Assembly: GCF_055900595.2 (NCBI RefSeq)
Contig: NZ_CM148325.1
Length of the DNA: 64,000 nt
Direction: 5' to 3' (one strand)
Shown piece after piece: positions 5,628 to 18,597 of this stretch; the stretch's first letter is position 1; each line of letters begins with the position of its first letter. The notes beneath the pieces were generated by a model. The model ran no database searches. It had not been told where the DNA came from and worked only from the letters and a program-made list of their open reading frames with translations. The position numbers and the translations under genes were made by a program.

Positions 5628-6320
5628 CTAGTGATAACCACGCGCGGTCATAAAATCCGTAATCGCTTTTTCTGCATCAACCAGCACCTTTTCCAGTGGC
5701 TGATTAGCATCGATATCAACCAGTTGTGCACCGCCAAAGGTTAACTGTGGCGTTATGGCAATCTTCCTCGCCAGCGATTCCCGTTTATGGTCGGGTTTAC
5801 GCGCGCAGGCAACTTCAAGGTCAACATTGAGTTTGATGACCAGATCAGGTTTATGGCTCGCCATCCAGTGAAACGCTTTACGTTCCTGGCTTGCCAGCCA
5901 TGAGACAAACCGGCCGCCTTCAACGTTAGGCGGGAACACTGTACCATCGTAAGCGCCAGGAATTTGGTCCTGAGGATAACGGTCGGTTAGAACAATTAAC
6001 CCGCGACGACGACAGGCAAGCATATGACGAAAGCGCAGTAAGCGACGGGCGACAAACGCTGTAATTACCAGCGCCGGAACTGGCCCAGGCAATTTTTTTG
6101 CTGTTTTCACCTGATTTCGTTCAATTGTTTTATGTAAGGATTTTCCCATCAACGGTAATTTTGTCACTGCACGACCGACATTTCCGGCCTGTTTTCCTAA
6201 ATGAACTCTTTCGGCAGCACCATATTTTTCGACAACGGTAATGAGATGTTCACACACCGTTGACTTGCCTGAACCATCGCTACCAATAACGGCAATTAAT
6301 GGAGGTGTTATTGACTGCAT
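5628..6320 (-). CDS. yghT: Uncharacterised P-loop ATP-binding protein, NMP-kinase-like fold
   Basis: 230 aa; N-terminal Walker [10 protein letters not shown]; internal LTDRYPQD (DRY-type motif); paralogous to the next two genes. Confidence 0.8.
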
Positions 6321-6493
6321 GAATATATCCTTTAATTTAAATATCCATTAAAAATATTTATTTGGTTAATATGTTTTTATGAAAGCGTAATTCAGGTCAA
6401 TGTCACAATTAACCATTGTCACAATAAGGTTGAACGGATATTCTGAGCACGGACCACGTAATATTCAATACATTATTTGCTGCCGGGTTTTTC

Positions 6494-7207
6494 GTGAATC
6501 AACGTAATATGTCAATAATTAATTCCACGCCAGTGCGTGTTATTGCCATTGTAGGATGTGATGGTTCAGGTAAATCGACCCTCACGGCAAGCCTGGTAAA
6601 TGAACTGGCAGCAAGAATGCCAACAGAACACATTTATCTCGGGCAATCGTCCGGGCGAATTGGCGAATGGATTTCACAGCTCCCTGTTATTGGCGCACCT
6701 TTTGGGCGTTATTTGCGAAGTAAAGCGGCACATGTGCACGAAAAGCCCTTAACACCGCCTGGCAATATTACTGCGCTGGTTATCTATCTGCTTTCCTGCT
6801 GGCGGGCGTACAAGTTTCGCAAAATGTTGTGTAAAAGCCAGCAAGGCTATCTGCTCATCACCGACCGCTACCCGCAGGTTGAAGTGCCGGGTTTTCGCTT
6901 TGATGGCCCGCAATTGGCAAAAACCACGGGCGGTAACGGCTGGATAAAAATGTTAAGGCAGCGCGAGCTGAAGCTGTACCAATGGATGGCGTCTTATTTG
7001 CCCGTATTGTTGATTCGTCTTGGCATTGATGAACAAACCGCGTTTTCGCGTAAACCTGACCATCAACTGGCGGCGTTACAGGAAAAAATCGCCGTTACGC
7101 CGCAACTGACATTCAATGGCGCCGGGATCCTTGAACTGGATGGTCGGCAACCAGCCGATGAAATTATGCAAGCGTCACTACGCGCAATTCACGCCGCGCT
7201 TTCCTGA
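6494..7207 (+). CDS. yghS: Uncharacterised P-loop ATP-binding protein, NMP-kinase-like fold
   Basis: 237 aa; Walker A GCDGSGKST; ITDRYPQ; C-terminal SRKPDH...TPQLTF shared with yghT. Confidence 0.8.
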   Translation: MNQRNMSIINSTPVRVIAIVGCDGSGKSTLTASLVNELAARMPTEHIYLGQSSGRIGEWISQLPVIGAPFGRYLRSKAAHVHEKPLTPPGNITALVIYLLSCWRAYKFRKMLCKSQQGYLLITDRYPQVEVPGFRFDGPQLAKTTGGNGWIKMLRQRELKLYQWMASYLPVLLIRLGIDEQTAFSRKPDHQLAALQEKIAVTPQLTFNGAGILELDGRQPADEIMQASLRAIHAALS

Positions 7208-7238
7208 TCACCAAAATGGATAGGGGATGATTTAACGA

Positions 7239-7997
7239 ATGGATGCACTACAAACACAAACTGTTAATAGTACAACCGTGCCGCAGCCCAACTACATTCC
7301 GGGGCTGATTGCGGTGGTCGGGTGTGATGGCACCGGTAAATCCACGCTGACCACCGACCTGGTGAAATCGCTGCAACAACACTGGCAAACCGAGCGCCGC
7401 TATTTGGGGCTGCTCTCCGGCGAAGACGGCGACAAAATCAAACGATTGCCGTTGGTTGGCGTCTGGCTGGAACGGCGACTGGCGGCCAAATCCTCGAAAA
7501 CCCAAAGCATGAAAACCAAATCTCCAGCGCTATGGGCGGCGGTGATTATGTACTGCTTCTCGCTGCGAAGAATGGCGAATCTACGCAAGGTTCAGCGACT
7601 GGCGCAAAGTGGCGTTCTGGTGGTCAGCGATCGCTTCCCGCAGGCTGAAATTTCGGGCTTTTATTATGACGGACCGGGGATTGGCGTCGAGCGCGCGACC
7701 GGGAAAATCAACCAATTTCTGGCGCAGCGCGAGCGACAGTTATACCAACAAATGGCGCAGTATCGTCCTGAATTAATCATTCGTTTGGGGATTGATATTG
7801 ATACTGCCATCTCCCGCAAGCCTGACCATGACTATGCCGAGCTGCAGGACAAAATCGGCGTCATGTCGACGATTGGCTATAACGGCACAAAAATTCTTGA
7901 GATTGATTCCAGAGCGCCCTACAGCGAAGTGCTGGAACAGGCACAGAAGGCGGTTTCTCTGGTTGCCATCGTTTCTGACCGCCGAAGTTTAACTTAA
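7239..7997 (+). CDS. yghR: Uncharacterised P-loop ATP-binding protein, NMP-kinase-like fold
   Basis: 252 aa; Walker A GCDGTGKST; VSDRFPQ; SRKPDH motif; third paralog. Confidence 0.8.
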   Translation: MDALQTQTVNSTTVPQPNYIPGLIAVVGCDGTGKSTLTTDLVKSLQQHWQTERRYLGLLSGEDGDKIKRLPLVGVWLERRLAAKSSKTQSMKTKSPALWAAVIMYCFSLRRMANLRKVQRLAQSGVLVVSDRFPQAEISGFYYDGPGIGVERATGKINQFLAQRERQLYQQMAQYRPELIIRLGIDIDTAISRKPDHDYAELQDKIGVMSTIGYNGTKILEIDSRAPYSEVLEQAQKAVSLVAIVSDRRSLT

Positions 7998-8042
7998 GGC
8001 TGGCGGGATACTTTTTACTATCAACGATAAGGTCAGGCTGAA

Positions 8043-9392
8043 TTGGCGGGTTTTAACATCAAACATTGGTTTGCAGATGGCGCGTTTCGCACCATTATTC
8101 GCAATAGCGCCTGGTTAGGCTCCAGTAATGTCGTGAGCGCTTTGCTGGGTCTGTTGGCGCTCTCGTGTGCCGGTAAAGGGATGACGCCCGCCATGTTTGG
8201 CGTACTGGTGATTGTGCAATCGTACGCCAAGTCGATCAGCGATTTTATTAAGTTTCAGACATGGCAGTTGGTGGTGCAGTACGGAACGCCAGCCTTGACC
8301 AACAATAATCCGCAGCAATTTCGCAATGTCGTCTCATTTTCCTTCTCGTTGGATATCGTCAGCGGCGCGGTGGCGATTGTCGGCGGCATTGCCTTACTCC
8401 CTTTTCTTTCCCATTCATTAGGTCTGGATGACCAAAGCTTTTGGCTGGCAGCGCTGTATTGCACGCTCATTCCTTCAATGGCTTCCTCCACGCCGACCGG
8501 CATTCTGCGTGCGGTAGATAGCTTCGACTTAATTGCTGTACAGCAGGCGACGAAACCTTTTCTGCGCGCAGCGGGGAGCGTCGTTGCCTGGTATTTTGAC
8601 TTTGGTTTTGCGGGTTTTGTTATTGCCTGGTACGCCTCGAATCTTGTTGGCGGCACCATGTACTGGTGGTTTGCCGCACGTGAATTACGCCGCAGAAATA
8701 TCCATAACGCGTTCAAATTGAATCTGTTTGAGTCTGCCCGACACATCAAAGGCGCGTGGAGTTTTGTCTGGTCAACCAACATTGCCCATTCCATCTGGTC
8801 GGCGCGTAATTCGTGCAGCACAGTGTTGGTGGGGATCGTGTTAGGACCCGCTGCCGCCGGGTTATTTAAAATCGCCATGACATTCTTCGACGCCGCCGGA
8901 ACGCCAGCGGGTTTACTAGGTAAAAGTTTTTACCCAGAGGTGATGCGTTTAGATCCGCGCACCACCAGACCGTGGTTGTTAGGCGTGAAGTCCGGTTTAC
9001 TGGCGGGCGGAATCGGTATTCTGGTGGCGCTCGCGGTGTTGATCGTCGGCAAGCCGCTCATTTCGCTGGTGTTTGGCGTTAAGTATCTCGAAGCGTATGA
9101 CCTGATTCAGGTGATGCTGGGCGCAATTGTGATTTCGATGCTGGGCTTCCCACAGGAGTCATTGCTATTGATGGCGGGAAAACAGCGTGCTTTTCTCGTG
9201 GCGCAAACCATCGCCTCAATCGGCTACATCGTATTGCTGTTCATGTTCTGTCATCTGTTTGGCGTGCTGGGGGCTGCATTTGCTTACTTCGCTGGGCAAT
9301 GTCTGGATGTGGTGCTCTCGCTAATTCCAACCTTAAAGGCATTTTTTCAGCGCCATTCCTTGCTTTATAACGCAGCCGGAGAGAAATCCTGA
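8043..9392 (+). CDS. yghQ: MOP/Wzx-like polysaccharide or lipid flippase family inner-membrane protein
   Basis: Polytopic membrane protein (many hydrophobic helices across 449 codons). Start uncertain: the track uses a TTG at 8043; the first in-frame ATG is at 8181 but would remove the first predicted TM helix. Stop overlaps the next start (TGATG at 9389-9394). Confidence 0.75.
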   Translation: MAGFNIKHWFADGAFRTIIRNSAWLGSSNVVSALLGLLALSCAGKGMTPAMFGVLVIVQSYAKSISDFIKFQTWQLVVQYGTPALTNNNPQQFRNVVSFSFSLDIVSGAVAIVGGIALLPFLSHSLGLDDQSFWLAALYCTLIPSMASSTPTGILRAVDSFDLIAVQQATKPFLRAAGSVVAWYFDFGFAGFVIAWYASNLVGGTMYWWFAARELRRRNIHNAFKLNLFESARHIKGAWSFVWSTNIAHSIWSARNSCSTVLVGIVLGPAAAGLFKIAMTFFDAAGTPAGLLGKSFYPEVMRLDPRTTRPWLLGVKSGLLAGGIGILVALAVLIVGKPLISLVFGVKYLEAYDLIQVMLGAIVISMLGFPQESLLLMAGKQRAFLVAQTIASIGYIVLLFMFCHLFGVLGAAFAYFAGQCLDVVLSLIPTLKAFFQRHSLLYNAAGEKS

Positions 9393-10228
9393 TGATGAGA
9401 AAATATTTCCCGCTTGAGGCTAGCGAGCGTCTATTTGTTGCGATTGAAGAAGATGATGTCGTTGATGCACAGGTCAGTTTGCCGCCGACTATCGCACTAA
9501 GTTGTACCACCGAAATCATCCATGATAATTACGCGTTATGCCTGAAATTCTGGCTGGATGGTGTTAATCGTCAGGAGCTACTGCGTTTAATCCGCAAACA
9601 GGCGAAAGGCGATGAGCTGACGACAGACGAGCGCAAAAAGTATAAATACATGCGAGCGCGCTACAAGCATCTGCGCTTTGCGCAACGGCTGTATTTAAAG
9701 AAGCATCAGGCCGGATTTTTATTCGGCAAAACGACCGTTTTTTTGGGGCGTTTTCAGGACGGCTTTCGTAACGGTAAGAAAAATATTGTGTCGTATTACG
9801 GCAACCTGTTACGGGTTTATTTAAGCTCTCCGGTCTGGTCGTTGGTGAACTATTCATTACGCCATAGCCAGTTAGAAAGCGTAAGCGGTTTTATTGCCTA
9901 TCGGCAAAAGCAAATGCATACCCTGAAAGAGATAATTGCCAAACCGCGACTAACTGGCAGGGAATTTCATGATGTGCGAAAAATCATCAGCCAGCAGGTT
10001 TCTTATTACGACACCCTAAGATCGCTTGATCCTGAAAATAAAGAGGCGTTACAGATTTCCCGCTTCCTCGCCGCCATTAATGGCCTGATGGGGGATAAAC
10101 ACGACGACATGGTGGCGGATGATATGGAAAACCGCCAGTCGTATGATGCACCGATGGCGCTGGATAGCGATATTCGTCAGCGCTTAGAACTGCTGATTTC
10201 GCGTTTCCCACTCTATCCGGAGCAATAA
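9392..10228 (+). CDS. Hypothetical protein (278 aa), translationally coupled between yghQ and a YtfJ-like gene
   Basis: Intact ORF with 1-nt overlaps to both neighbours (yghQ stop / its ATG; its stop / next ATG); no motif I can assign; basic, soluble-looking. Confidence 0.6.
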   Translation: MMRKYFPLEASERLFVAIEEDDVVDAQVSLPPTIALSCTTEIIHDNYALCLKFWLDGVNRQELLRLIRKQAKGDELTTDERKKYKYMRARYKHLRFAQRLYLKKHQAGFLFGKTTVFLGRFQDGFRNGKKNIVSYYGNLLRVYLSSPVWSLVNYSLRHSQLESVSGFIAYRQKQMHTLKEIIAKPRLTGREFHDVRKIISQQVSYYDTLRSLDPENKEALQISRFLAAINGLMGDKHDDMVADDMENRQSYDAPMALDSDIRQRLELLISRFPLYPEQ

Positions 10229-10788
10229 TGCCATCTCGTTGGATTTTCGCTCTGATCATCGCACTCTTAGCGCCAGGCGCGGTGGCACACAATTTCGTCA
10301 CTGGTAAAACGGTTACCCCTGTTTATATCCAGGAAGGCGGTGAGTTGCTTCTGAATAGCGACGACGAAATTCACTACCAAAAGTGGAACAGCACACAGCT
10401 GGCGGGAAAAGTCCGCATTATTCAGTATATCGCCGGGCGTAAGTCGGCGAAGAAAAAGAACTCACTGTTAATTAAAGCGGTTGAAGCGGCAAACTTTCCG
10501 CAGGATCGTTTTCAGCCCACCACCATTGTGAACACCGATGATGCCATCTTTGGTACCGACTATTTTGTCGTTGGCAAAATCGAAAAAAATAAACGCCGCT
10601 ATCCATGGGCGCAATTCGTTATTGACGGCAATGGACAGGGACGTGTTGCCTGGCGCTTGCCGGAGCAGAGTTCAACCATTCTGGTGCTGAATAAAAACGG
10701 GCAAATTCAGTGGGCAAAGGACGGCAGCCTGACGCCGGAAGAGGTAGATCATGTCATTGCGCTGGCGCAGAAGCTGATCAATGAATAA
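10228..10788 (+). CDS. YtfJ-family periplasmic protein
   Basis: 186 aa with N-terminal signal peptide (MPSRWIFALIIALLAPGAVAHNF). Strong resemblance over the whole length to remembered E. coli YtfJ (...KTWNS.QL.GKVR..Q.IAGR.SAK..N..LI.A...A..P.DR.Q.TTIVNTDDAI...YPW.QF..D.NG... QWAKDG.LTPEEV...). Confidence 0.7.
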   Translation: MPSRWIFALIIALLAPGAVAHNFVTGKTVTPVYIQEGGELLLNSDDEIHYQKWNSTQLAGKVRIIQYIAGRKSAKKKNSLLIKAVEAANFPQDRFQPTTIVNTDDAIFGTDYFVVGKIEKNKRRYPWAQFVIDGNGQGRVAWRLPEQSSTILVLNKNGQIQWAKDGSLTPEEVDHVIALAQKLINE

Positions 10789-10818
10789 AAAACTCAAAGG
10801 ATTGAGGGCGTTAGTGAG

Positions 10819-11889
10819 ATGAAGCTGGTTGAACACTACATCATGCGTGGTACGCGCCGTCTGGTGCTGATTATCGTCGGTTTTCTGATCTTTATTTTCG
10901 CCAGCTACTCCGCACAGCGTTATCTGACCGAAGCGGCAAATGGGACATTAGCTCTTGATGTTGTGCTGGATATCGTTTTCTACAAAGTGCTGATTGCACT
11001 GGAGATGCTGTTACCTGTTGGACTATATGCTTCAGTTGGCGTGACGCTAGGGCAAATGTATACCGACTCGGAAATTACCGCTATCTCCGCGGCGGGGGGC
11101 AGTCCGGGACGCTTGTACAAAGCCGTTCTTTATCTGGCGATACCGCTAAGTATTTTTGTCACCCTTCTGTCGATGTATGGTCGTCCGTGGGCTTATGCGC
11201 AGATTTATCAACTGGAGCAACAGTCACAGTCGGAGCTGGATGTTCGCCAGTTGCGGGCAAAGAAATTTAACACTAACGATAACGGACGAATGATCCTTTC
11301 GCAGACGGTTGATCAGGATAATAATCGCCTGACTGACGCGCTGATTTATACTTCTACTGCCAATCGAACCCGCATTTTCCGCGCCCGTTCGGTTGATGTG
11401 GTTGACCCATCACCTGAGAAACCGACCGTTATGTTGCATAACGGGACCGCCTATCTTCTCGATCATCAGGGGCGTGACGACAACGAACAGATCTACCGTA
11501 ATCTGCAATTACATCTGAATCCGCTGGATCAAAGCCCTAACGTCAAACGCAAAGCAAAATCGGTCACGGAGCTGGCGCGCTCCGCCTTTCCTGCCGATCA
11601 TGCCGAACTGCAATGGCGACAAAGCCGTGGCCTGACAGCATTGTTGATGGCGCTGCTGGCCATTTCATTAAGTCGGGTAAAACCGCGGCAAGGGCGATTT
11701 TCAACGTTATTGCCACTGACGTTGCTGTTTATTGCCATTTTTTATGGCGGCGACGTCTGCCGTACGCTGGTGGCTAACGGCGCGATTCCCCTCATTCCTG
11801 GTTTGTGGTTAGTACCCGGACTCATGCTAATGGGCCTGCTGATGCTGGTCGCACGCGACTTCTCTTTGCTGCAGAAATTTTCCCGATGA
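10819..11889 (+). CDS. LptF/LptG-family (YjgP/YjgQ) permease, paralog 1
   Basis: 356 aa; N-terminal 3-TM bundle, central soluble (periplasmic beta-jellyroll-like) region, C-terminal TM bundle with RQGRFS motif reminiscent of LptF/LptG (NPRQGR); located outside the canonical lptFG locus. Confidence 0.75.
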   Translation: MKLVEHYIMRGTRRLVLIIVGFLIFIFASYSAQRYLTEAANGTLALDVVLDIVFYKVLIALEMLLPVGLYASVGVTLGQMYTDSEITAISAAGGSPGRLYKAVLYLAIPLSIFVTLLSMYGRPWAYAQIYQLEQQSQSELDVRQLRAKKFNTNDNGRMILSQTVDQDNNRLTDALIYTSTANRTRIFRARSVDVVDPSPEKPTVMLHNGTAYLLDHQGRDDNEQIYRNLQLHLNPLDQSPNVKRKAKSVTELARSAFPADHAELQWRQSRGLTALLMALLAISLSRVKPRQGRFSTLLPLTLLFIAIFYGGDVCRTLVANGAIPLIPGLWLVPGLMLMGLLMLVARDFSLLQKFSR

Positions 11890-12965
11890 ATGTTTTCAGC
11901 CGCTATTTAATCCGTCATCTCTTTCTCGGTTTTGCCGCCGCCGCAGGGCTATTGCTGCCGCTTTTTACCACCTTCAACCTGATTAACGAACTGGATGATG
12001 TCGGCCCGGGCGGTTATCGCTGGACCCAGGCGGTGCTGGTGGTGCTGATGACCTTACCGCGCACACTGGTCGAACTTTCGCCGTTTATCGCCTTATTGGG
12101 AGGGATTGTCGGCCTGGGGCAACTATCGAAAAACAGTGAGCTTACCGCCATTCGCAGCACGGGGTTTTCTATCTTCCGTATTGCACTGGTGGCGCTGGTT
12201 GCCGGGATATTGTGGACTGTTTCGTTAGGCGCGATAGATGAGTGGGTGGCGTCGCCATTGCAGCAACAGGCGCTGCAAATCAAATCGACTGCCACCGCGT
12301 TGGGGGAGGACGATGACATTACCGGCAATATGCTTTGGGCCAGGCGCGGTAATGAATTTGTGACGGTGAAATCGCTGAACGAGCAGGGCCAGCCTGTGGG
12401 CGTGGAGATATTTCATTATCGCGACGATCTCTCGCTCGAATCCTACATTTTTGCACGCAGTGCCTCCATTGAAGACGACAAAACATGGATCCTGCATGGT
12501 GTGAATCATAAAAAATGGTTGAATGGCAAAGAAACGCTGGAAACATCAGATAATCTTACCTGGCAATCGGCCTTCACCAGTATGAATCTTGAAGAGTTAT
12601 CGATGCCGGGAAATACTTTTTCTGTCCGTCAACTTAATCATTACATCCATTATTTGCAGGAAACTGGGCAACCCAGCAGCGAATACCGCCTTGCACTGTG
12701 GGAAAAACTGGGACAACCCATCCTGACCCTGGCGATGATTTTGCTGGCTGTGCCGTTTACCTTTAGTGCCCCGCGTTCGCCTGGGATGGGTAGCCGTCTC
12801 GCTGTAGGCGTCATCGTGGGCTTACTTACCTGGATCAGCTATCAAATCATGGTCAATCTGGGATTGCTATTTGCGTTGAGCGCACCTGTTACCGCGCTCG
12901 GTTTACCGGTAGCGTTTGTGCTGGTGGCGTTGAGCCTGGTGTATTGGTATGACAGACAACATTAA
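11886..12965 (+). CDS. LptF/LptG-family (YjgP/YjgQ) permease, paralog 2
   Basis: Start set at ATG 11886 (MNVFSRYLIRHLF...), overlapping the upstream stop by 4 nt (ATGA); same TM-soluble-TM architecture as the upstream gene. Confidence 0.75.
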   Translation: MNVFSRYLIRHLFLGFAAAAGLLLPLFTTFNLINELDDVGPGGYRWTQAVLVVLMTLPRTLVELSPFIALLGGIVGLGQLSKNSELTAIRSTGFSIFRIALVALVAGILWTVSLGAIDEWVASPLQQQALQIKSTATALGEDDDITGNMLWARRGNEFVTVKSLNEQGQPVGVEIFHYRDDLSLESYIFARSASIEDDKTWILHGVNHKKWLNGKETLETSDNLTWQSAFTSMNLEELSMPGNTFSVRQLNHYIHYLQETGQPSSEYRLALWEKLGQPILTLAMILLAVPFTFSAPRSPGMGSRLAVGVIVGLLTWISYQIMVNLGLLFALSAPVTALGLPVAFVLVALSLVYWYDRQH

Positions 12966-12999
12966 ACCCGCCGTGGCGCAACACCACAGCGGGCTCACA

Positions 13000-14172
13000 T
13001 TACTGCTTCAGAGTAGCGAACGCTTGAATGATGGCATCAATTTGCTCACGACTGTGGGCAGCGTTTACGCTACAGCGCAGCAGCGTGATGCCTGCAGGCG
13101 CGGCAGGTGGCAGGATAAGATTCACATAAACGCCCAGCGAAATAAGCTCGCGCCAGATGCGTAAACCTTCCTCTTTCGAACCGATTATTACTGGCACTAC
13201 CGGGCTAATATGTGAACTTAACTCATAATCCAGTTTTTGCAGACCGTCATACAGATGGTTGGCATTATCCATCAGCTTTTGCCGCAACTCTGGTTGTGAG
13301 GCAATGGTTCTTAACGACGAGCGCACGGTCGCAATGCAGGACGGAGAAGGAGAGGCGGTAAAAATATACGGGCGGCTGCCGTAGCGCAACACTTCCATCG
13401 CTTCCGAACCGACAGCAAAACCGCCAATCGAGGCCAGACTTTTACTGAAGGTACCAACGATAATATCCACATCATCTTCAACGCCAACGGCTTCAGCCAG
13501 TCCGCGCCCCGTTGCGCCTAACACGCCAAACGAATGCGCTTCATCGACAATCAAATAACCACCGAGACGACGTTTGATATCAACAATTTCCGCCAGCGGC
13601 GCAACGTCACCGAGCATACTGTAGATGCCTTCAACGATGATAATCGCCTCTTTTGCCCGTTCACCGAGGCGAACCATGCGCCGTTCCAGATCTTTAGCAT
13701 CGTTATGGCGGAAACGAATAATTTCCGCGCCACCGAGAGAACAGGCGTCATAAATACTGGCGTGGCTGTCGGCATCCAGTAACACCACGGCGTTATGGTC
13801 GGCAAGTGCGCTGATGACGCCTAAATTAGCGGTATAACCGGTTGAAAAAACGATAGCGGTAGGGCGATTAAAAAACTCGGCGATCTCTTTCTCTAACGCC
13901 AGATGCGGCGCATAACTGCCGTTTGCCATACGAGAACCGGTGGTGCCGGTGCCTTGGGCCGCTAACGCTGCCTGACCTTCGGCGATGGCATCATGATTAA
14001 AGGTTAAACCGAGATAATTATTGGTCCCGGCCAGAATCACTTTTTTATTGCCGATCCGACCTTCGGTGGCGGAATACACTTCATCAATACAGGTGCCAAA
14101 CGGTGTTAACCCGTTGTCACTAAATTGCAGTCGCTCGCCAGCAAGGCGCGCATATTTATCGTATAGCCCCAT
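13000..14172 (-). CDS. PLP-dependent alpha-oxoamine synthase (serine palmitoyltransferase / BioF / Kbl family)
   Basis: 390 aa; family-typical N-terminal GSRMANGSY.....LE.E.A.F, and PLP-lysine motif ...IVGTFSKSLASIGGF...; start overlaps the stop of the upstream carrier-protein gene. Confidence 0.85.
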   Translation of the reverse strand: MGLYDKYARLAGERLQFSDNGLTPFGTCIDEVYSATEGRIGNKKVILAGTNNYLGLTFNHDAIAEGQAALAAQGTGTTGSRMANGSYAPHLALEKEIAEFFNRPTAIVFSTGYTANLGVISALADHNAVVLLDADSHASIYDACSLGGAEIIRFRHNDAKDLERRMVRLGERAKEAIIIVEGIYSMLGDVAPLAEIVDIKRRLGGYLIVDEAHSFGVLGATGRGLAEAVGVEDDVDIIVGTFSKSLASIGGFAVGSEAMEVLRYGSRPYIFTASPSPSCIATVRSSLRTIASQPELRQKLMDNANHLYDGLQKLDYELSSHISPVVPVIIGSKEEGLRIWRELISLGVYVNLILPPAAPAGITLLRCSVNAAHSREQIDAIIQAFATLKQ

Positions 14173-14420
14173 TATTTATTCTCCAGCCATGGAAGTAGTG
14201 TTTCCATTAATTGCGCAGGGGTTTTGACATCCAGCAGAATATTAATAGGAATGGAAATATCGAATCTGTCTTCCAGCATCATTAAGAGATCCATCACTTT
14301 GATCGACTCCAGGCCAAGATCGTTGACGAGATCGCTGTCGGGCTTAATTTCCACACCGTTTTCGACCAAATCCTGTAAACAGGAAAGGATGTAATCCATT
14401 ACTATTTCACGATTTACCAT
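14172..14420 (-). CDS. Acyl carrier protein (phosphopantetheine-binding)
   Basis: 82 aa, acidic, with DLGLESIKVMDLLMMLEDRF resembling the ACP DSL/ESx attachment-site helix. Confidence 0.8.
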   Translation of the reverse strand: MVNREIVMDYILSCLQDLVENGVEIKPDSDLVNDLGLESIKVMDLLMMLEDRFDISIPINILLDVKTPAQLMETLLPWLENK

Positions 14421-14451
14421 AGAAACGTTAACACACCTTTAAACAAGACAA

Positions 14452-15366
14452 TCAAAATAGCCCGTTGCGTAATGCGTGTTCCAGGCTAATCCCGGGAAAC
14501 CAATTAATATCTTCAGAAATACGGTTATTACTTGCTGACCAGTCGGCGTGGGTTAATTCACGGATTTTCGAGCGGGTCAGCATAGGTTCTTTACCTGCCA
14601 GGCGACTCAACGCGGTACTGATATCCGCAAGGCAGGTGAGTACCGACAGAGGAATACCAACCATTCGAACGGAACCGCAACGGGCGTCGGCGGCAAGTTG
14701 CTGTACGCGTTGCCAGTCATAGCCGCCGGCGACGCCATCGCATAATTCATAGGTTTGCGTCTGTACAGTTTCGGCGCTTAACCACTGCCCCACGGCTTGC
14801 GCGAAATCGGTGACGTGCAGGAAAGAGAGCTGTGTATCTGGCGCACCAAGTCGTGGCAGCAGGCCGCGCAGCATCCAGTCAAACAGCGGTTTTAACTCTT
14901 TATCGCCGGGACCATACACGGCTGTCGGGCGAAAAATGCCCAGCGTAATTTCGTCAGCCATTGCGGTCAGTCGTTGTTCGGCGACGTGTTTGGAATTTGC
15001 GTACCAGGAGAGTTCGGGATGACGCGCCGCCAGCGAAGAGATAAACAGAAAACGTTGGCAAAAGCCGCTCTCTTTTGCCGCTTGCATCAGGCGCAGGCTG
15101 CCGTCAACGTTACAGCGGGTAAAAATCTCTTCTTTGTGTCCGCGCACTTGTCCGGCGCAATGGACCACCGCGCTGGCTCCGGCAACCAGTTCGCTAAGCG
15201 AATGTGTATCTTCCAGCGAACCGCGCACCCAGATGAGATTATCATTGACGTGAGCGCGGGCAGTACGCGTCAATGCGCGAACGTGAAAGCCGCGGGCGAG
15301 CAGGTTATCGATAATATATTTACCGATAAACCCGGTAGCGCCCGTCACCGCGACAGTTTGATTCAT
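14452..15366 (-). CDS. NAD(P)-dependent epimerase/dehydratase-family (extended SDR) reductase
   Basis: 304 aa with N-terminal Rossmann motif VAVTGATGFIGKYI; 4-nt overlap with the upstream AMP-ligase gene. Confidence 0.8.
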   Translation of the reverse strand: MNQTVAVTGATGFIGKYIIDNLLARGFHVRALTRTARAHVNDNLIWVRGSLEDTHSLSELVAGASAVVHCAGQVRGHKEEIFTRCNVDGSLRLMQAAKESGFCQRFLFISSLAARHPELSWYANSKHVAEQRLTAMADEITLGIFRPTAVYGPGDKELKPLFDWMLRGLLPRLGAPDTQLSFLHVTDFAQAVGQWLSAETVQTQTYELCDGVAGGYDWQRVQQLAADARCGSVRMVGIPLSVLTCLADISTALSRLAGKEPMLTRSKIRELTHADWSASNNRISEDINWFPGISLEHALRNGLF

Positions 15367-17111
15367 GCCAGGGATTCCTGCACATGAAGGCTTGCAGCAT
15401 AAGCCTTCTGATAACGTTTTTTCGCTTCCGCACGGGCAGGCTTGCCGGAGGACGTTCGGGGAATACTGTGGGGCGGCAACAGATCGATAGCCGCGGTTAC
15501 GCCAAATTCGCTTTGGATCCGTGCTGCCAGTGCGTGGATAAGCTGCCCACGACGTTCTTCGTCGCTGATCCTACACTGGATCTGCAGAATGATTTTTTCC
15601 TGGGCGGTAACAAAAGCAATCGCATCGCCAGAATGAATTTCCGGTTCCTGTTCCGCAATATATTCAATATCCTGCGGCCAGATATTACGGCCACGAATAA
15701 TAATCAGATCTTTAATGCGTCCGGTGACATACAGATAACCGTCCAGCAGATAACCGAGGTCGCCGGTATCTAACCAGCCCGTCGCGGCAATCTCGTCTTG
15801 CGAAACCTGGTCGCCAAAGTAACCGCTCATCAGGCTGGGGCCGGAGATGCAAATATGGCCTACCACACGTTCCGCGACCGGCATACCTGCTTCATTGCGG
15901 ATTTCAATGCCATGTTCCGGCAACGCTTTACCGCAGTTGACGAAAGTCGATACGGCGCGTGTTTCAGCACCCGGCGCGACGGCTTTGCCCTGATATTCAA
16001 GGATGTCGCGATCCACTTCGTTAACCACAACCCCGGAGGCTTCATCAGAGAAGCTGACAGCCAGCGCATTTTCTGCCAGTCCGTAGCACGGCATGAACGT
16101 TTTATCGTCAAAGTTAACCTGACGGAAACATTCAGCGAATTGATGGAGTTGTTCTGCGGAGATGGGTTCTGCACCAATACCAGCGACGCGCCAGCAGGAA
16201 AGATCCAGTTCAGCGAGATCTTTTTCATTCACGCGGCGCTGGCACAATTCATAGCCAAACGGCGGCGCAACGGAAACGGTGCCGCGATTTTTACTGATCA
16301 ATTTAAGCCATTGCAGAGGACGCATGGCAAAATCCTGAGTGCGCAAATAATCTACTGAAAGCTGCGTGGCGACGGGGGTCAGGAGAAAGCCGACCAGTCC
16401 CATATCATGGTAGAAAGGCAGCCAGGAGACGCAGCGGTCGCCAGGGCGTAATTTAATGCCATCGTGGCTTATAGCACGTAGATTAGCCATCACTTCGCGA
16501 TGGGTGATAATGACGCCACGGGGAAAACGGGTGCTGCCGGAGGTGTACTGGAGGTAGGCGATATCGTTCGGAACTGGATGCTGGAGTGCAACATCGGCTT
16601 CCGGTAATGCCTTAAACCAGGCGTGGCTTAAAACATGTAATTCGGGGTTGTTATGCGTAGCGGCATTGACCAGTGGCAACCACTCATCACCAGTGATAAT
16701 GGCTGCGGGCTGGCAACTTGCCAGTAAACCCTGCAGTTTGGCGCTCCAGGAATCCCGCTGACCGATGCCCATTGGAATCGCCAACGGGACGGCGACTAAG
16801 CCGGCATACTGGCAGGAAAAAAAAGCCTCTACGAACCCGCTACTGGTTTCGGCAATCAGCGCCACGCGATCGCCTTTTTTCAGGTTCAGCGATAACAACC
16901 GCTTCGCACCAGCTTCGGCACGCGCTTTTAACGTCTGATATTCCAGTTGATCTTCAAGTTGGCAACGTCTGTCATAAAAATTCATTCCGGCGCTACTCAG
17001 AGCGGCGTAGTCCAAAGCATCAACCAGCGTTGGAAAATCGGCATAGCGCATAGGTAGGGAATGCGTAAAGATTTTATTAGACATATACACCACGAAAAAA
17101 TTGGATATCAA
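15363..17111 (-). CDS. AMP-dependent synthetase/ligase (fatty-acyl-AMP ligase / acyl-ACP synthetase-like)
   Basis: 582 aa with the adenylate-forming signature YTSGSTRFPRGV (consensus YTSGSTGxPKGV) and downstream GYG/ETG-type core motifs; exact start (17111 vs 17084) uncertain. Confidence 0.85.
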   Translation of the reverse strand: MISNFFVVYMSNKIFTHSLPMRYADFPTLVDALDYAALSSAGMNFYDRRCQLEDQLEYQTLKARAEAGAKRLLSLNLKKGDRVALIAETSSGFVEAFFSCQYAGLVAVPLAIPMGIGQRDSWSAKLQGLLASCQPAAIITGDEWLPLVNAATHNNPELHVLSHAWFKALPEADVALQHPVPNDIAYLQYTSGSTRFPRGVIITHREVMANLRAISHDGIKLRPGDRCVSWLPFYHDMGLVGFLLTPVATQLSVDYLRTQDFAMRPLQWLKLISKNRGTVSVAPPFGYELCQRRVNEKDLAELDLSCWRVAGIGAEPISAEQLHQFAECFRQVNFDDKTFMPCYGLAENALAVSFSDEASGVVVNEVDRDILEYQGKAVAPGAETRAVSTFVNCGKALPEHGIEIRNEAGMPVAERVVGHICISGPSLMSGYFGDQVSQDEIAATGWLDTGDLGYLLDGYLYVTGRIKDLIIIRGRNIWPQDIEYIAEQEPEIHSGDAIAFVTAQEKIILQIQCRISDEERRGQLIHALAARIQSEFGVTAAIDLLPPHSIPRTSSGKPARAEAKKRYQKAYAASLHVQESLA

Positions 17112-17454
17112 AAATAAAATGACAATAATGCGGTGGATTATATAGGCATAAAAGATAAATGAGATAGTATTTTCATCAGTGTGAAAATGAACATTGATTT
17201 AAATAATGAGTTTGAGTTTTTTGTTTTTATTGTGAATGATATTTAATTTATGAATGTATTAAGAAGAAGCCTTGTCCGGTCGCCTTAAATCGACAAAAGG
17301 CATTGTGGCGCTTCTGTGTAGTCTCTGACCTTATCGTAATCATTAATAAATGCTATTTATTCGTCGTTTGTATTCATTGGGTTGATTATTAAGGTGCCGT
17401 TCGTTGCTGTTGCAACCTGTTTGTCACCGTTAATTATTTGTTACCCACAGAACT

Positions 17455-18597
17455 ATGGAATGCGATCTGCTGATGATTAAAATTGAAAAAGTAATTAATA
17501 AAAATGACCTTAAGGCATTTATCGCTTTTCCGTCATCACTTTATCCCGACGATCCAAACTGGATACCCCCTTTATTCATTGAACGCAACGAGCATTTGTC
17601 TGCGAAAAATCCGGGGACGGACCATATCATCTGGCAGGCGTGGGTGGCAAAAAAAGCCGGGCAGATAGTTGGGCGAATTACCGCGCAAATCGATACCTTG
17701 CACCGTGAGCGTTACGGTGAAGATACCGGTCATTTCGGCATGATTGACGCCATTGATGATCCGCAGGTTTTTGCCGCGTTGTTTGGCGCAGCGGAAGCGT
17801 GGTTGAAGTCACAAGGTGCAAGTAAGATCAGCGGTCCTTTCAGCCTGAATATCAATCAGGAAAGCGGATTACTGATTGAAGGTTTCGATACACCACCCTG
17901 TGCGATGATGCCGCACGGTAAACCGTGGTATGCCGCGCATATTGAACAATTGGGTTATCACAAAGGCATTGATTTACTAGCGTGGTGGATGCAGCGAACC
18001 GATCTCACTTTCTCTCCGGCGCTAAAAAAACTGATGGATCAGGTGCGTAAGAAGGTGACCATTCGCTGCATCAATCGCCAGCGGTTTGCCGAAGAGATGC
18101 AGATCCTGCGTGAGATTTTCAACTCTGGCTGGCAGCACAACTGGGGATTTGTGCCGTTTACCGAACATGAATTCGCGACTATGGGCGATCAACTTAAATA
18201 TCTGGTGCCGGACGATATGATCTACATCGCTGAGATTGATTCTGCACCCTGCGCGTTTATTGTTGGCTTGCCAAACATCAACGAGGCGATTGCCGATCTG
18301 AACGGATCGCTCTTTCCCTTCGGCTGGGCAAAATTGCTGTGGCGTTTAAAAGTCAGCGGTGTGCGAACTGCGCGAGTACCGCTGATGGGCGTGCGGGACG
18401 AGTATCAGTTTAGCCGCATCGGCCCGGTGATTGCGCTGTTATTGATTGAAGCCTTACGCGATCCGTTTGCCCGCCGGAAGATCGATGCGCTGGAAATGTC
18501 ATGGATCCTCGAAACCAATACAGGCATGAATAACATGCTGGAACGCATTGGGGCAGAGCCGTACAAGCGTTACCGATTGTATGAAAAGCAGATTTGA
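17455..18597 (+). CDS. yghO: YghO-family protein, intact; possible GNAT-like N-acyltransferase
   Basis: 380-aa intact ORF where K-12 (as I recall) carries only a yghO pseudogene next to glcC; acyltransferase assignment is my inference from fold-like sequence features, not a motif I can pin down. Start could also be Met at 17473. Confidence 0.65.
   Translation: MECDLLMIKIEKVINKNDLKAFIAFPSSLYPDDPNWIPPLFIERNEHLSAKNPGTDHIIWQAWVAKKAGQIVGRITAQIDTLHRERYGEDTGHFGMIDAIDDPQVFAALFGAAEAWLKSQGASKISGPFSLNINQESGLLIEGFDTPPCAMMPHGKPWYAAHIEQLGYHKGIDLLAWWMQRTDLTFSPALKKLMDQVRKKVTIRCINRQRFAEEMQILREIFNSGWQHNWGFVPFTEHEFATMGDQLKYLVPDDMIYIAEIDSAPCAFIVGLPNINEAIADLNGSLFPFGWAKLLWRLKVSGVRTARVPLMGVRDEYQFSRIGPVIALLLIEALRDPFARRKIDALEMSWILETNTGMNNMLERIGAEPYKRYRLYEKQI

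What the first reader, a model, noticed from the sequence alone, without database searches (positions are those of the whole stretch)
17455..18597. Intact yghO next to the lipid operon - candidate N-acyltransferase completing a ceramide-like pathway
The 380-aa YghO ORF is intact here, whereas I recall K-12 yghO as a pseudogene annotated as a regulator. It is transcribed divergently from the ligase-reductase-ACP-synthase operon across a shared 343-bp AT-rich region. In bacterial ceramide synthesis the N-acylation step is carried out by a GNAT-like acyltransferase of similar size, so YghO is a plausible candidate for that role. This is inference from context and size, not from a motif I can read.
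Basis: inference. Interest (0 to 1): 0.7.

Follow-up and report, generated by a model that had tools for sequence, protein, structure and literature searches.

The report
E. coli YghO, predicted bacterial ceramide synthase
The intact yghO gene is real and very probably encodes the acyltransferase that completes a ceramide-making pathway carried by most E. coli, but a 2022 paper already assigned it this role by orthology, so the finding is correct rather than new.

Summary
An uninterrupted 380-codon ORF lies at 17455-18597. It is divergent from an acyl-ACP synthetase / reductase / ACP / serine palmitoyltransferase operon across a 343-bp spacer of about 33% GC. In K-12 an IS5-associated deletion removed that operon and replaced the first ~13 YghO codons.

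- In 80 loci from many phyla, 70 have an spt-operon gene and/or LptF2/LptG2 paralogs within 10 kb. In 38 the layout is the same divergent one as here.
- dN/dS is 0.05-0.09.
- 4,067 of 5,426 complete E. coli genomes carry the whole region.

It is not new. Padilla-Gomez et al. 2022 (PMC9386255) list "yghO ECD_02850" of BL21(DE3) as the ortholog of Caulobacter CC_1154 (bCerS): 44% identity, E = 1e-107. They propose that it N-acylates sphinganine. A 2026 preprint draws the E. coli UTI89 sphingolipid operons.

Still untested: YghO enzymology and whether wild E. coli makes sphingolipids natively. Verdict: correct, already known, low interest as a discovery.

The parts
17455..18597 (+). yghO coding sequence (380 codons plus stop). 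The start conserved in orthologs is the ATG at 17473, giving 374 aa.
   Evidence: ORF list and translation. RefSeq annotation of the identical sequence. Orthologs of 374 aa and the conserved Shine-Dalgarno before the M7-equivalent ATG.
17473..17997 (+). N-terminal GNAT-like half (residues ~1-175 in 374-aa numbering)
18055..18594 (+). C-terminal GNAT domain (residues ~195-374), the half that matches acetyl-CoA-binding GNAT enzymes by sequence
   Evidence: The family profile hits PDB GNATs only over profile positions ~303-379. Conserved NWGFVP, LPFGW..LLWRLK and ELSWILEDN blocks.
18382..18426 (+). GNAT motif-A-like segment after strand beta-4: L-M-G306-V-R308-x-x-Y-Q312-x-x-R-x-G317-P. The family consensus is Q-x-x-G-x-G-A.
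   Evidence: HMM alignment to 2ge3. Invariant and near-invariant columns G306, R308, Q312, G317.
17112..17454 (.). AT-rich divergent intergenic region (343 bp by longest ORFs, GC about 0.33), presumed to hold both promoters
   Evidence: A consensus sigma-70 scan found nothing above the shuffle expectation, so the promoters are inferred and not located.
15363..17111 (-). aasR: fatty acyl-AMP ligase / specialised acyl-ACP synthetase (RefSeq start at 17051)
   Evidence: NCBIfam NF006624, 874.6 bits. RefSeq annotation. AasR of E. coli BL21 was characterised in PMC9386255.
14452..15366 (-). cerR-like NAD(P)-dependent epimerase/dehydrogenase (predicted 3-keto reductase)
   Evidence: NCBIfam SDR/epimerase hits. 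ECD_02852 was proposed as a keto-sphinganine reductase.
14172..14420 (-). acpR: specialised acyl carrier protein
   Evidence: NCBIfam ACP hits. AcpR of E. coli BL21 was shown to carry 4'-phosphopantetheine.
13000..14172 (-). spt: serine palmitoyltransferase
   Evidence: NCBIfam NF047599, 593.5 bits against a cut-off of 500. SPT of E. coli BL21 makes 3-oxo-sphinganine together with AcpR and AasR.
10819..12965 (+). lptF2 (10819-11889) and lptG2 (11886-12965): second copies of the LPS-export permeases. Their Caulobacter counterparts are needed for sphingolipid transport.
   Evidence: NCBIfam LptF and LptG hits. RefSeq coordinates. bioRxiv 10.64898/2026.04.12.717747. They lie next to YghO homologs in 48 of 80 loci.

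Best explanation
YghO is the E. coli ortholog of the bacterial ceramide synthase (bCerS / CerS / 'Aca', Caulobacter CC_1154 = CCNA_01212). It is predicted to be a soluble, two-domain (tandem) GNAT-fold acyltransferase with no match to membrane (TLC-domain) ceramide synthases. The proposed pathway runs as follows. AasR loads a fatty acid onto the dedicated carrier AcpR. Spt condenses acyl-AcpR with serine to give 3-oxo-sphinganine. YghO transfers a second fatty acyl chain from an acyl thioester (probably acyl-CoA) to the free amine of 3-oxo-sphinganine or sphinganine. The CerR-like reductase reduces the 3-keto group, giving dihydroceramide. The neighbouring flippase and LptF2/LptG2 probably export the product. 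What was shown here: the fold, family conservation, purifying selection and conserved gene neighbourhood. What others have shown: the activities of E. coli Spt, AcpR and AasR, and the activity of Caulobacter bCerS. What is inferred: the substrates and activity of E. coli YghO, the order of acylation and reduction, and native expression.

For: Family. There are 6,489 representative clusters at E <= 1e-3 and 1,128 at E <= 1e-30, mostly 370-400 aa and matching full length. YghO keeps all invariant and near-invariant residues.

Selection. dN/dS is 0.059 against a divergent E. coli and 0.05-0.09 against Pluralibacter and Pseudocitrobacter.

Synteny. Serratia and Pantoea have the same divergent layout with different outer flanks. 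Of 80 loci from one-genome-per-species contigs, 38 have Spt, 42 have AasR, 48 have LptF2/G2 and 70 have at least one of these within 10 kb. Among the 48 loci with full flanks, 44 have at least one.

E. coli population. yghO is present in 4,529 of 5,426 complete genomes, the spt operon in 4,067 and the joint 6.6-kb region in 4,067.

Literature. yghO/ECD_02850 is listed as the CC_1154 ortholog at 44% identity, E = 1e-107 and 98% coverage. BL21(DE3) forms compounds migrating like sphinganine and ceramide when 3-oxo-sphinganine synthesis is boosted, 'possibly by intrinsic enzymes'. bCerS acylates 3-oxo-sphinganine or sphinganine. One source names a family member 'Hypothetical protein associated with Serine palmitoyltransferase'.
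Against: No biochemical or genetic test of E. coli YghO was found in the held literature. The ceramide-like products in BL21 were identified only by TLC migration. YghO itself gives no Pfam or NCBIfam hit. Its motif A has Arg where the family consensus has the first Gly. Ten of the 80 loci show no cluster gene within 10 kb by the Spt/CerR/AasR/LptF2/G2 criterion, although six of these are truncated contigs and three others carry a homolog of the cluster's 278-aa protein. Shimwellia has a second paralog with no cluster nearby (L015). About 460 E. coli genomes keep yghO without the operon. I did not align YghO to the Caulobacter sequence myself, so that figure is taken from the paper. The ASKA yghO clone was included as a candidate in a lysine-acetyltransferase screen. 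That clone is presumably the K-12 allele, whose N-terminus is disrupted, so it says little either way.
Confidence: 0.85

Rival explanations
1. YghO is a GNAT N-acyltransferase acting on a different amine (a small molecule, a protein lysine, or another lipid such as an amino-acid lipid or a head-group amine), and its adjacency to spt reflects a decorating or unrelated role rather than ceramide formation.
For: The closest solved structures acetylate sugars, mycothiol precursors or aminoglycosides rather than lipids. There is no direct assay for E. coli YghO. A paralog without the cluster exists in Shimwellia. yghO was considered a candidate lysine acetyltransferase.
Against: Identity to those structures is only 13-17%. 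YghO is reported as 44% identical over 98% of its length to the Caulobacter enzyme that is required for ceramide formation and acylates long-chain bases. The five-gene set aasR-cerR-acpR-spt-cerS needs exactly one N-acyltransferase, and no other candidate lies in the E. coli block.
Confidence: 0.08
2. YghO is a DNA-binding transcriptional regulator of the divergent operon, as in the legacy annotation.
For: Some database entries call family members 'DNA-binding protein' or 'DNA-binding transcriptional regulator'. Divergent gene pairs often include a regulator.
Confidence: 0.01
3. The gene encodes a competent ceramide synthase, but the E. coli pathway is cryptic. It is silent or very weakly expressed under ordinary growth, so YghO contributes nothing to the lipidome except under unknown conditions. 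This rival concerns physiology and not enzyme identity, and it is compatible with the best explanation.
For: In my general knowledge E. coli is described as lacking sphingolipids, and the papers read here report none made natively. In BL21, sphingoid products were seen only when aasR/acpR/spt were overexpressed. The spacer is AT-rich at GC 0.33, which in my general knowledge is typical of H-NS-silenced loci. K-12 lost the cluster without obvious cost.
Against: Strong purifying selection (dN/dS 0.05-0.09) and retention of the intact region in 75% of complete E. coli genomes argue that the genes are used in nature.
Confidence: 0.35

Closest known systems
Caulobacter crescentus bacterial ceramide synthase bCerS / CerS / 'Aca' (CC_1154 = CCNA_01212)
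   Same: Published 44% identity, E = 1e-107 and 98% coverage to BL21 YghO. This is as close as the Sphingomonas wittichii (45%) and Hyphomonas (41%) orthologs. It belongs to the same five-gene set (aasR, cerR, acpR, spt, cerS) and lies next to lptF2/lptG2. bCerS is described as a peripheral, non-integral cytoplasmic protein, which fits the globular GNAT model here.
   Different: E. coli YghO has not been assayed. In E. coli cerS is divergent from aasR, whereas in Caulobacter it lies beside lptG2. The E. coli block has three P-loop 'dTMP-kinase-like' genes and no LCB5-type CpgB ceramide kinase was seen, so downstream head-group chemistry probably differs.
Tandem-repeat GNAT acyltransferases with solved structures (MAB_4324 7q3a, glucosamine N-acetyltransferase 5kf1, clavulanate ORF14 2wpw, mycothiol synthase MshD 1ozp, Eis)
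   Different: Only 13-17% identity. Those enzymes transfer acetyl groups to water-soluble amines, whereas YghO is predicted to transfer a long acyl chain to a lipid amine. No solved structure of any bCerS-family member was found by sequence.
Eukaryotic ceramide synthases (Lag1p/CerS, TLC-domain integral membrane proteins)
   Same: The same predicted chemical step: N-acylation of a sphingoid base with an acyl thioester.
   Different: Unrelated fold and topology. YghO is predicted to be a globular GNAT protein with no Pfam TLC/LAG1 match. The bacterial pathway is regarded as convergent, with acylation possibly preceding reduction.

Membership tests
Bacterial ceramide synthase (bCerS / CerS / Aca; CC_1154 family) | Full-length sequence homology to the experimentally validated Caulobacter enzyme CC_1154 / CCNA_01212 | not tested
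   I could not retrieve the Caulobacter sequence with the calls I was willing to spend. The published BLASTP for CC_1154 against ECD_02850 (yghO of BL21) gives E = 1e-107, 44% identity and 98% coverage (PMC9386255 Table S2). RefSeq names the window gene yghO.
Bacterial ceramide synthase (bCerS / CerS / Aca; CC_1154 family) | GNAT-type acyltransferase fold with a CoA-binding motif and no membrane-spanning TLC domain | tested here: met
Bacterial ceramide synthase (bCerS / CerS / Aca; CC_1154 family) | Genomic association with spt, acpR, aasR, cerR and/or the sphingolipid lptF2/lptG2 genes | tested here: met
   70 of 80 loci have at least one such gene within 10 kb, and 44 of the 48 with full flanks do. 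38 of 80 have the same divergent aasR<>yghO layout. Serratia and Pantoea loci show the same.
Bacterial ceramide synthase (bCerS / CerS / Aca; CC_1154 family) | Retention of family-conserved residues and purifying selection, meaning it is not a decaying copy | tested here: met
   YghO has all invariant and >=90% conserved residues of an 84-sequence alignment. dN/dS is 0.05-0.09.
Bacterial ceramide synthase (bCerS / CerS / Aca; CC_1154 family) | N-acylation of 3-oxo-sphinganine or sphinganine, and a requirement for ceramide formation in vivo | not testable with these tools
   Reported for Caulobacter bCerS. For E. coli there are only ceramide-like TLC spots in BL21 attributed to 'intrinsic enzymes'.
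GNAT superfamily (Pfam Acetyltransf families) | Significant match to a Pfam GNAT profile | tested here: not met
   No Pfam hit even at E <= 10 for the E. coli protein. A few orthologs at 80% identity carry a precomputed PF00583 hit. Membership of the superfamily therefore rests on the fold and on weak profile-to-PDB hits at E about 0.005.
Transcriptional regulators (legacy yghO annotation) | A recognisable DNA-binding domain | tested here: not met
   No Pfam domain was detected. The whole chain is accounted for by two GNAT domains.
Eukaryotic-type ceramide synthase (Lag1/TLC) | Multi-pass membrane TLC domain with a Lag1p motif | tested here: not met
   No Pfam match. The predicted fold is a globular alpha/beta GNAT.

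The most novel reading that the evidence does not exclude
Most natural E. coli carry an intact cluster (75% of complete genomes) and actually make an uncharacterised sphingolipid. YghO would be the ceramide synthase. The head group would be built by the cluster's three P-loop kinase-like proteins (YghR/S/T) rather than by a Caulobacter-type CpgB kinase. YghQ and LptF2/LptG2 would export it to the outer membrane. K-12, the strain on which the 'E. coli has no sphingolipids' view rests, lost the pathway through an IS5-mediated deletion.
Probability: 0.4. Interest if true: 0.6.

Novelty: already known. Interest (0 to 1): 0.22.

Why it matters
If YghO works as predicted, the best-studied bacterium carries a complete ceramide pathway in most natural and pathogenic isolates, and only the laboratory K-12 lineage lacks it. 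That matters for outer-membrane biology, for host interaction, since bacterial sphingolipids affect virulence and immunity in other species, and for annotation: RefSeq still calls the gene 'protein YghO', and other databases call relatives 'DNA-binding protein' or 'dATP pyrophosphohydrolase'. The assignment itself has been in the literature since 2022. What remains is biochemical confirmation, identification of the native lipid, and the conditions under which it is made.

Tried and rejected
- Pfam and NCBIfam scans of YghO gave no hits.
- A profile search of PDB sequences gave only weak GNAT hits at E about 0.005, so there is no solved close relative.
- A sigma-70 promoter and terminator scan of the spacer found nothing above the shuffle expectation. 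The promoters are not located.
It succeeded with an 11-sequence alignment.
- The primary bCerS paper (Stankeviciute 2022) is not held under its DOI or its PMC id. Its content is cited only through other papers.
- Attempts to reach a named Caulobacter protein through AFDB50 and cluster look-ups did not return one. I chose not to spend a 13-CPU-hour search on it, given the published table.
- The DNA-binding regulator reading was rejected on the fold.
- I considered whether the upstream P-loop genes equal the Caulobacter ceramide kinase and rejected it, because CpgB is an LCB5/DAG-kinase-type enzyme.
- The 278-aa neighbour has no Pfam or NCBIfam match.

Full report
OBSERVATION. The ORF list shows an uninterrupted ATG-started ORF of 380 aa at 17455..18597 on the plus strand. 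Upstream on the minus strand lie four co-oriented genes:
- A fatty acyl-AMP ligase at 15363-17111 (NCBIfam NF006624, 874.6 bits).
- An NAD-dependent epimerase/dehydrogenase at 14452-15366.
- An acyl carrier protein at 14172-14420.
- A serine palmitoyltransferase at 13000-14172 (NF047599, 593.5 bits against a cut-off of 500).

The spacer between the longest ORFs is 17112-17454, which is 343 bp, with GC about 0.33 against about 0.52 around it. The window is 100% identical over 6.6 kb to E. coli KY 1497, where RefSeq annotates 'yghO: protein YghO' next to 'spt'. The description is therefore accurate.

K-12. In a K-12-like genome an IS5 element sits between a 3'-truncated yghQ and yghO. All genes from the end of yghQ to aasR are absent. 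The first ~13 residues of YghO are replaced by sequence from the IS5 flank, and the remaining 365 of 371 aligned residues are identical. PMC11677980 lists this IS5 copy as inserted inside yghO in BW25113.

START CODON. Orthologs in other Enterobacterales are 374 aa. They begin at the ATG equivalent to M7 (17473), preceded by a conserved AAGG Shine-Dalgarno and by in-frame stops. E. coli-lineage sequences have an extra in-frame ATG 18 nt upstream. Which start E. coli uses is open, and it does not affect the conclusion.

WHAT THE PROTEIN IS. YghO gives no Pfam or NCBIfam hit. A whole-library phmmer search shows a large family: 6,489 representative clusters at E <= 1e-3 and 1,128 at E <= 1e-30, mostly 370-400 aa and matching end to end. 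An 84-sequence alignment has invariant G67, L103, P122, G132, G306 and N349, plus conserved NWGFVP, LPFGW..LLWRLK and ELSWILEDN blocks. YghO retains all of these.

IS IT A WORKING GENE? dN/dS is 0.059 against a divergent E. coli (96% amino-acid identity) and 0.05-0.09 against Pluralibacter and Pseudocitrobacter. dS is saturated for the other comparisons. In complete E. coli genomes, yghO is present at >=80% coverage in 4,529 of 5,426, the four-gene operon in 4,067 and the joint 6.6-kb region in 4,067. The operon is therefore essentially always accompanied by yghO. About 460 genomes keep yghO alone, and the one I inspected is K-12-like with the IS5 junction.

CO-OCCURRENCE ACROSS GENOMES. In Serratia liquefaciens and Pantoea cypripedii, the 80-82% identical ortholog has the same divergent arrangement with AMP-ligase, epimerase, ACP and aminotransferase genes. 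The outer flanks are unrelated to those in E. coli.

A scan of one-genome-per-species contigs returned 80 loci spanning Enterobacterales, Pseudomonas, Nitrosomonas/Nitrosospira, Nitrospira, deltaproteobacteria, Gemmatimonadetes, Methylomirabilis and Rhodobacteraceae. I ran tblastn with the window's proteins against these loci:
- Spt was found within 10 kb in 38 of 80, and AasR in 42.
- The same divergent aasR<>yghO layout occurred in 38.
- LptF2/LptG2 paralogs were present in 48.
- At least one of these was present in 70 of 80 loci, and in 44 of the 48 loci with full flanks.

Of the four full-flank exceptions, three (Luteibacter and Dyella) have a homolog of the cluster's 278-aa protein nearby. 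The Nitrosomonas loci have only lptF2/lptG2 beside the gene. This matches the published map, in which Neut_1100 lies far from spt.

Limits of this test: only the 80 best of at least 589 relatives were examined, only +/-10 kb was searched, and several contigs are truncated.

WHAT IS ALREADY PUBLISHED.
- Padilla-Gomez et al. 2022 (PMC9386255) studied exactly this cluster in E. coli BL21(DE3). They showed that AcpR(Ec) carries 4'-phosphopantetheine. They also showed that AasR(Ec), AcpR(Ec) and SPT(Ec) together make 3-oxo-sphinganine.
[quoted passage not shown] Its Figure 9 lists 'aca: CC_1154, yghO ECD_02850'. Table S2 gives E = 1e-107, 44% identity and 98% coverage.
- When 3-oxo-sphinganine synthesis was boosted in BL21, compounds migrating like sphinganine and ceramide appeared, 'possibly by intrinsic enzymes'.
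- CC_1154 is one of five genes required for ceramide formation in Caulobacter. It is reported to acylate 3-oxo-sphinganine or sphinganine.
- bCerS is described as a cytoplasmic peripheral membrane protein that acts before the periplasmic reductase.
- A 2026 preprint draws the E. coli UTI89 sphingolipid operons beside those of Caulobacter and shows that LptF2/G2/C2 are needed for sphingolipid transport.
- No held paper tests E. coli YghO itself.

MECHANISM. The most likely mechanism, with confidence about 0.85, runs as follows. AasR charges AcpR with a fatty acid. Spt condenses acyl-AcpR with serine. YghO N-acylates the resulting long-chain base using an acyl thioester bound in its C-terminal GNAT domain. 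The CerR-like reductase reduces the 3-keto group, either before or after acylation. The MOP flippase and LptF2/LptG2 move the lipid outward. The fold, conservation, selection and synteny were shown here. The activities of Spt, AcpR, AasR and Caulobacter bCerS were shown by others. YghO's substrates, its acyl donor and native expression are inferred.

RIVALS. A GNAT acting on some other amine remains possible at about 0.08, because no assay exists and the closest solved structures acetylate soluble amines. However, these share only 13-17% identity, and no other N-acyltransferase candidate lies in the block. The regulator reading is effectively excluded by the fold. A separate and compatible question is whether the pathway is silent in laboratory culture. 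The AT-rich spacer and the need for overexpression in BL21 suggest that it may be, whereas purifying selection and 75% retention argue that it is used in nature.

VERDICT. The novelty rating is 'already known', because this very gene was assigned this role by orthology in 2022 and the locus is drawn as a sphingolipid cluster in later work. The residual value is practical: the annotation is outdated, YghO enzymology is untested, and the native E. coli sphingolipid, if one exists, is unidentified.

Noticed in passing
window 5628-12965: The genes upstream of spt look like part of one sphingolipid synthesis and export island. They are three P-loop 'dTMP-kinase-like' proteins (yghT 5628-6320 minus strand, yghS 6494-7207, a yghR-like gene 7239-7997, all far below NCBIfam cut-offs), the MOP flippase yghQ (8043-9392), a 278-aa protein with no family match (9392-10228) and a YtfJ-family protein (10228-10788). 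The flippase and the 278-aa protein recur beside spt and yghO in Serratia, Pantoea, Shimwellia, Citrobacter and Hafnia. Kinase-like genes of similar size, with faint Thymidylate_kin hits, lie beside spt in Serratia and Pantoea. No CpgB-type (LCB5) ceramide kinase was seen, so the head group may differ from Caulobacter ceramide phosphoglycerate.
   Followed up: partly
window 10819-12965: Second copies of LptF and LptG pass the NCBIfam 'equivalog' cut-offs (317.5 against 230 bits, and 306.8 against 240). RefSeq names them lptF and lptG, 'LPS export ABC transporter permease'. By position and by the Caulobacter work they are more likely sphingolipid transporters (LptF2/LptG2), so this is probably an over-specific annotation.
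   Followed up: partly
L085 3738-5966 (K-12-like strain gw25); corresponds to window ~9100-17494: In K-12 an IS5 element replaces everything from the 3' part of yghQ to codon ~13 of yghO. The laboratory strain therefore lost the 278-aa gene, ytfJ-like, lptF2, lptG2, spt, acpR, cerR and aasR in one event.
   Followed up: yes
L002 11354-11716; L003 11354-11716; L004 11242-11604: In Serratia and Pantoea a 120-aa DgkA-type lipid kinase gene (Pfam DAGK_prokar) lies immediately downstream of yghO on the same strand. It is a candidate lipid (ceramide?) kinase that is absent from this position in E. coli, where glcC follows.
   Followed up: no
L015 10001-11122 versus L006 10001-11122: Shimwellia pseudoproteus has two YghO paralogs. 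One (84% identity) sits in the full cluster. The second (75% identity) has no cluster gene within 10 kb, so it may have a different function or be a recent duplicate.
   Followed up: no
protein family of window 17455-18597: Database names for this one family are contradictory: 'N-acetyltransferase', 'GNAT family N-acetyltransferase', 'DNA-binding protein', 'DNA-binding transcriptional regulator', 'dATP pyrophosphohydrolase', 'protein YghO' and 'Hypothetical protein associated with Serine palmitoyltransferase'. No Pfam or NCBIfam model covers it.
   Followed up: yes
L025-L062 (Nitrosomonas, Nitrosospira and related loci), ~11100-14200: In ammonia oxidisers and several other lineages the YghO homolog is followed on the same strand by a gap of about 0.9 kb and then lptF2 and lptG2, with spt elsewhere. 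This resembles the Caulobacter cerS-lptG2-lptF2 neighbourhood more than the E. coli layout.
   Followed up: partly
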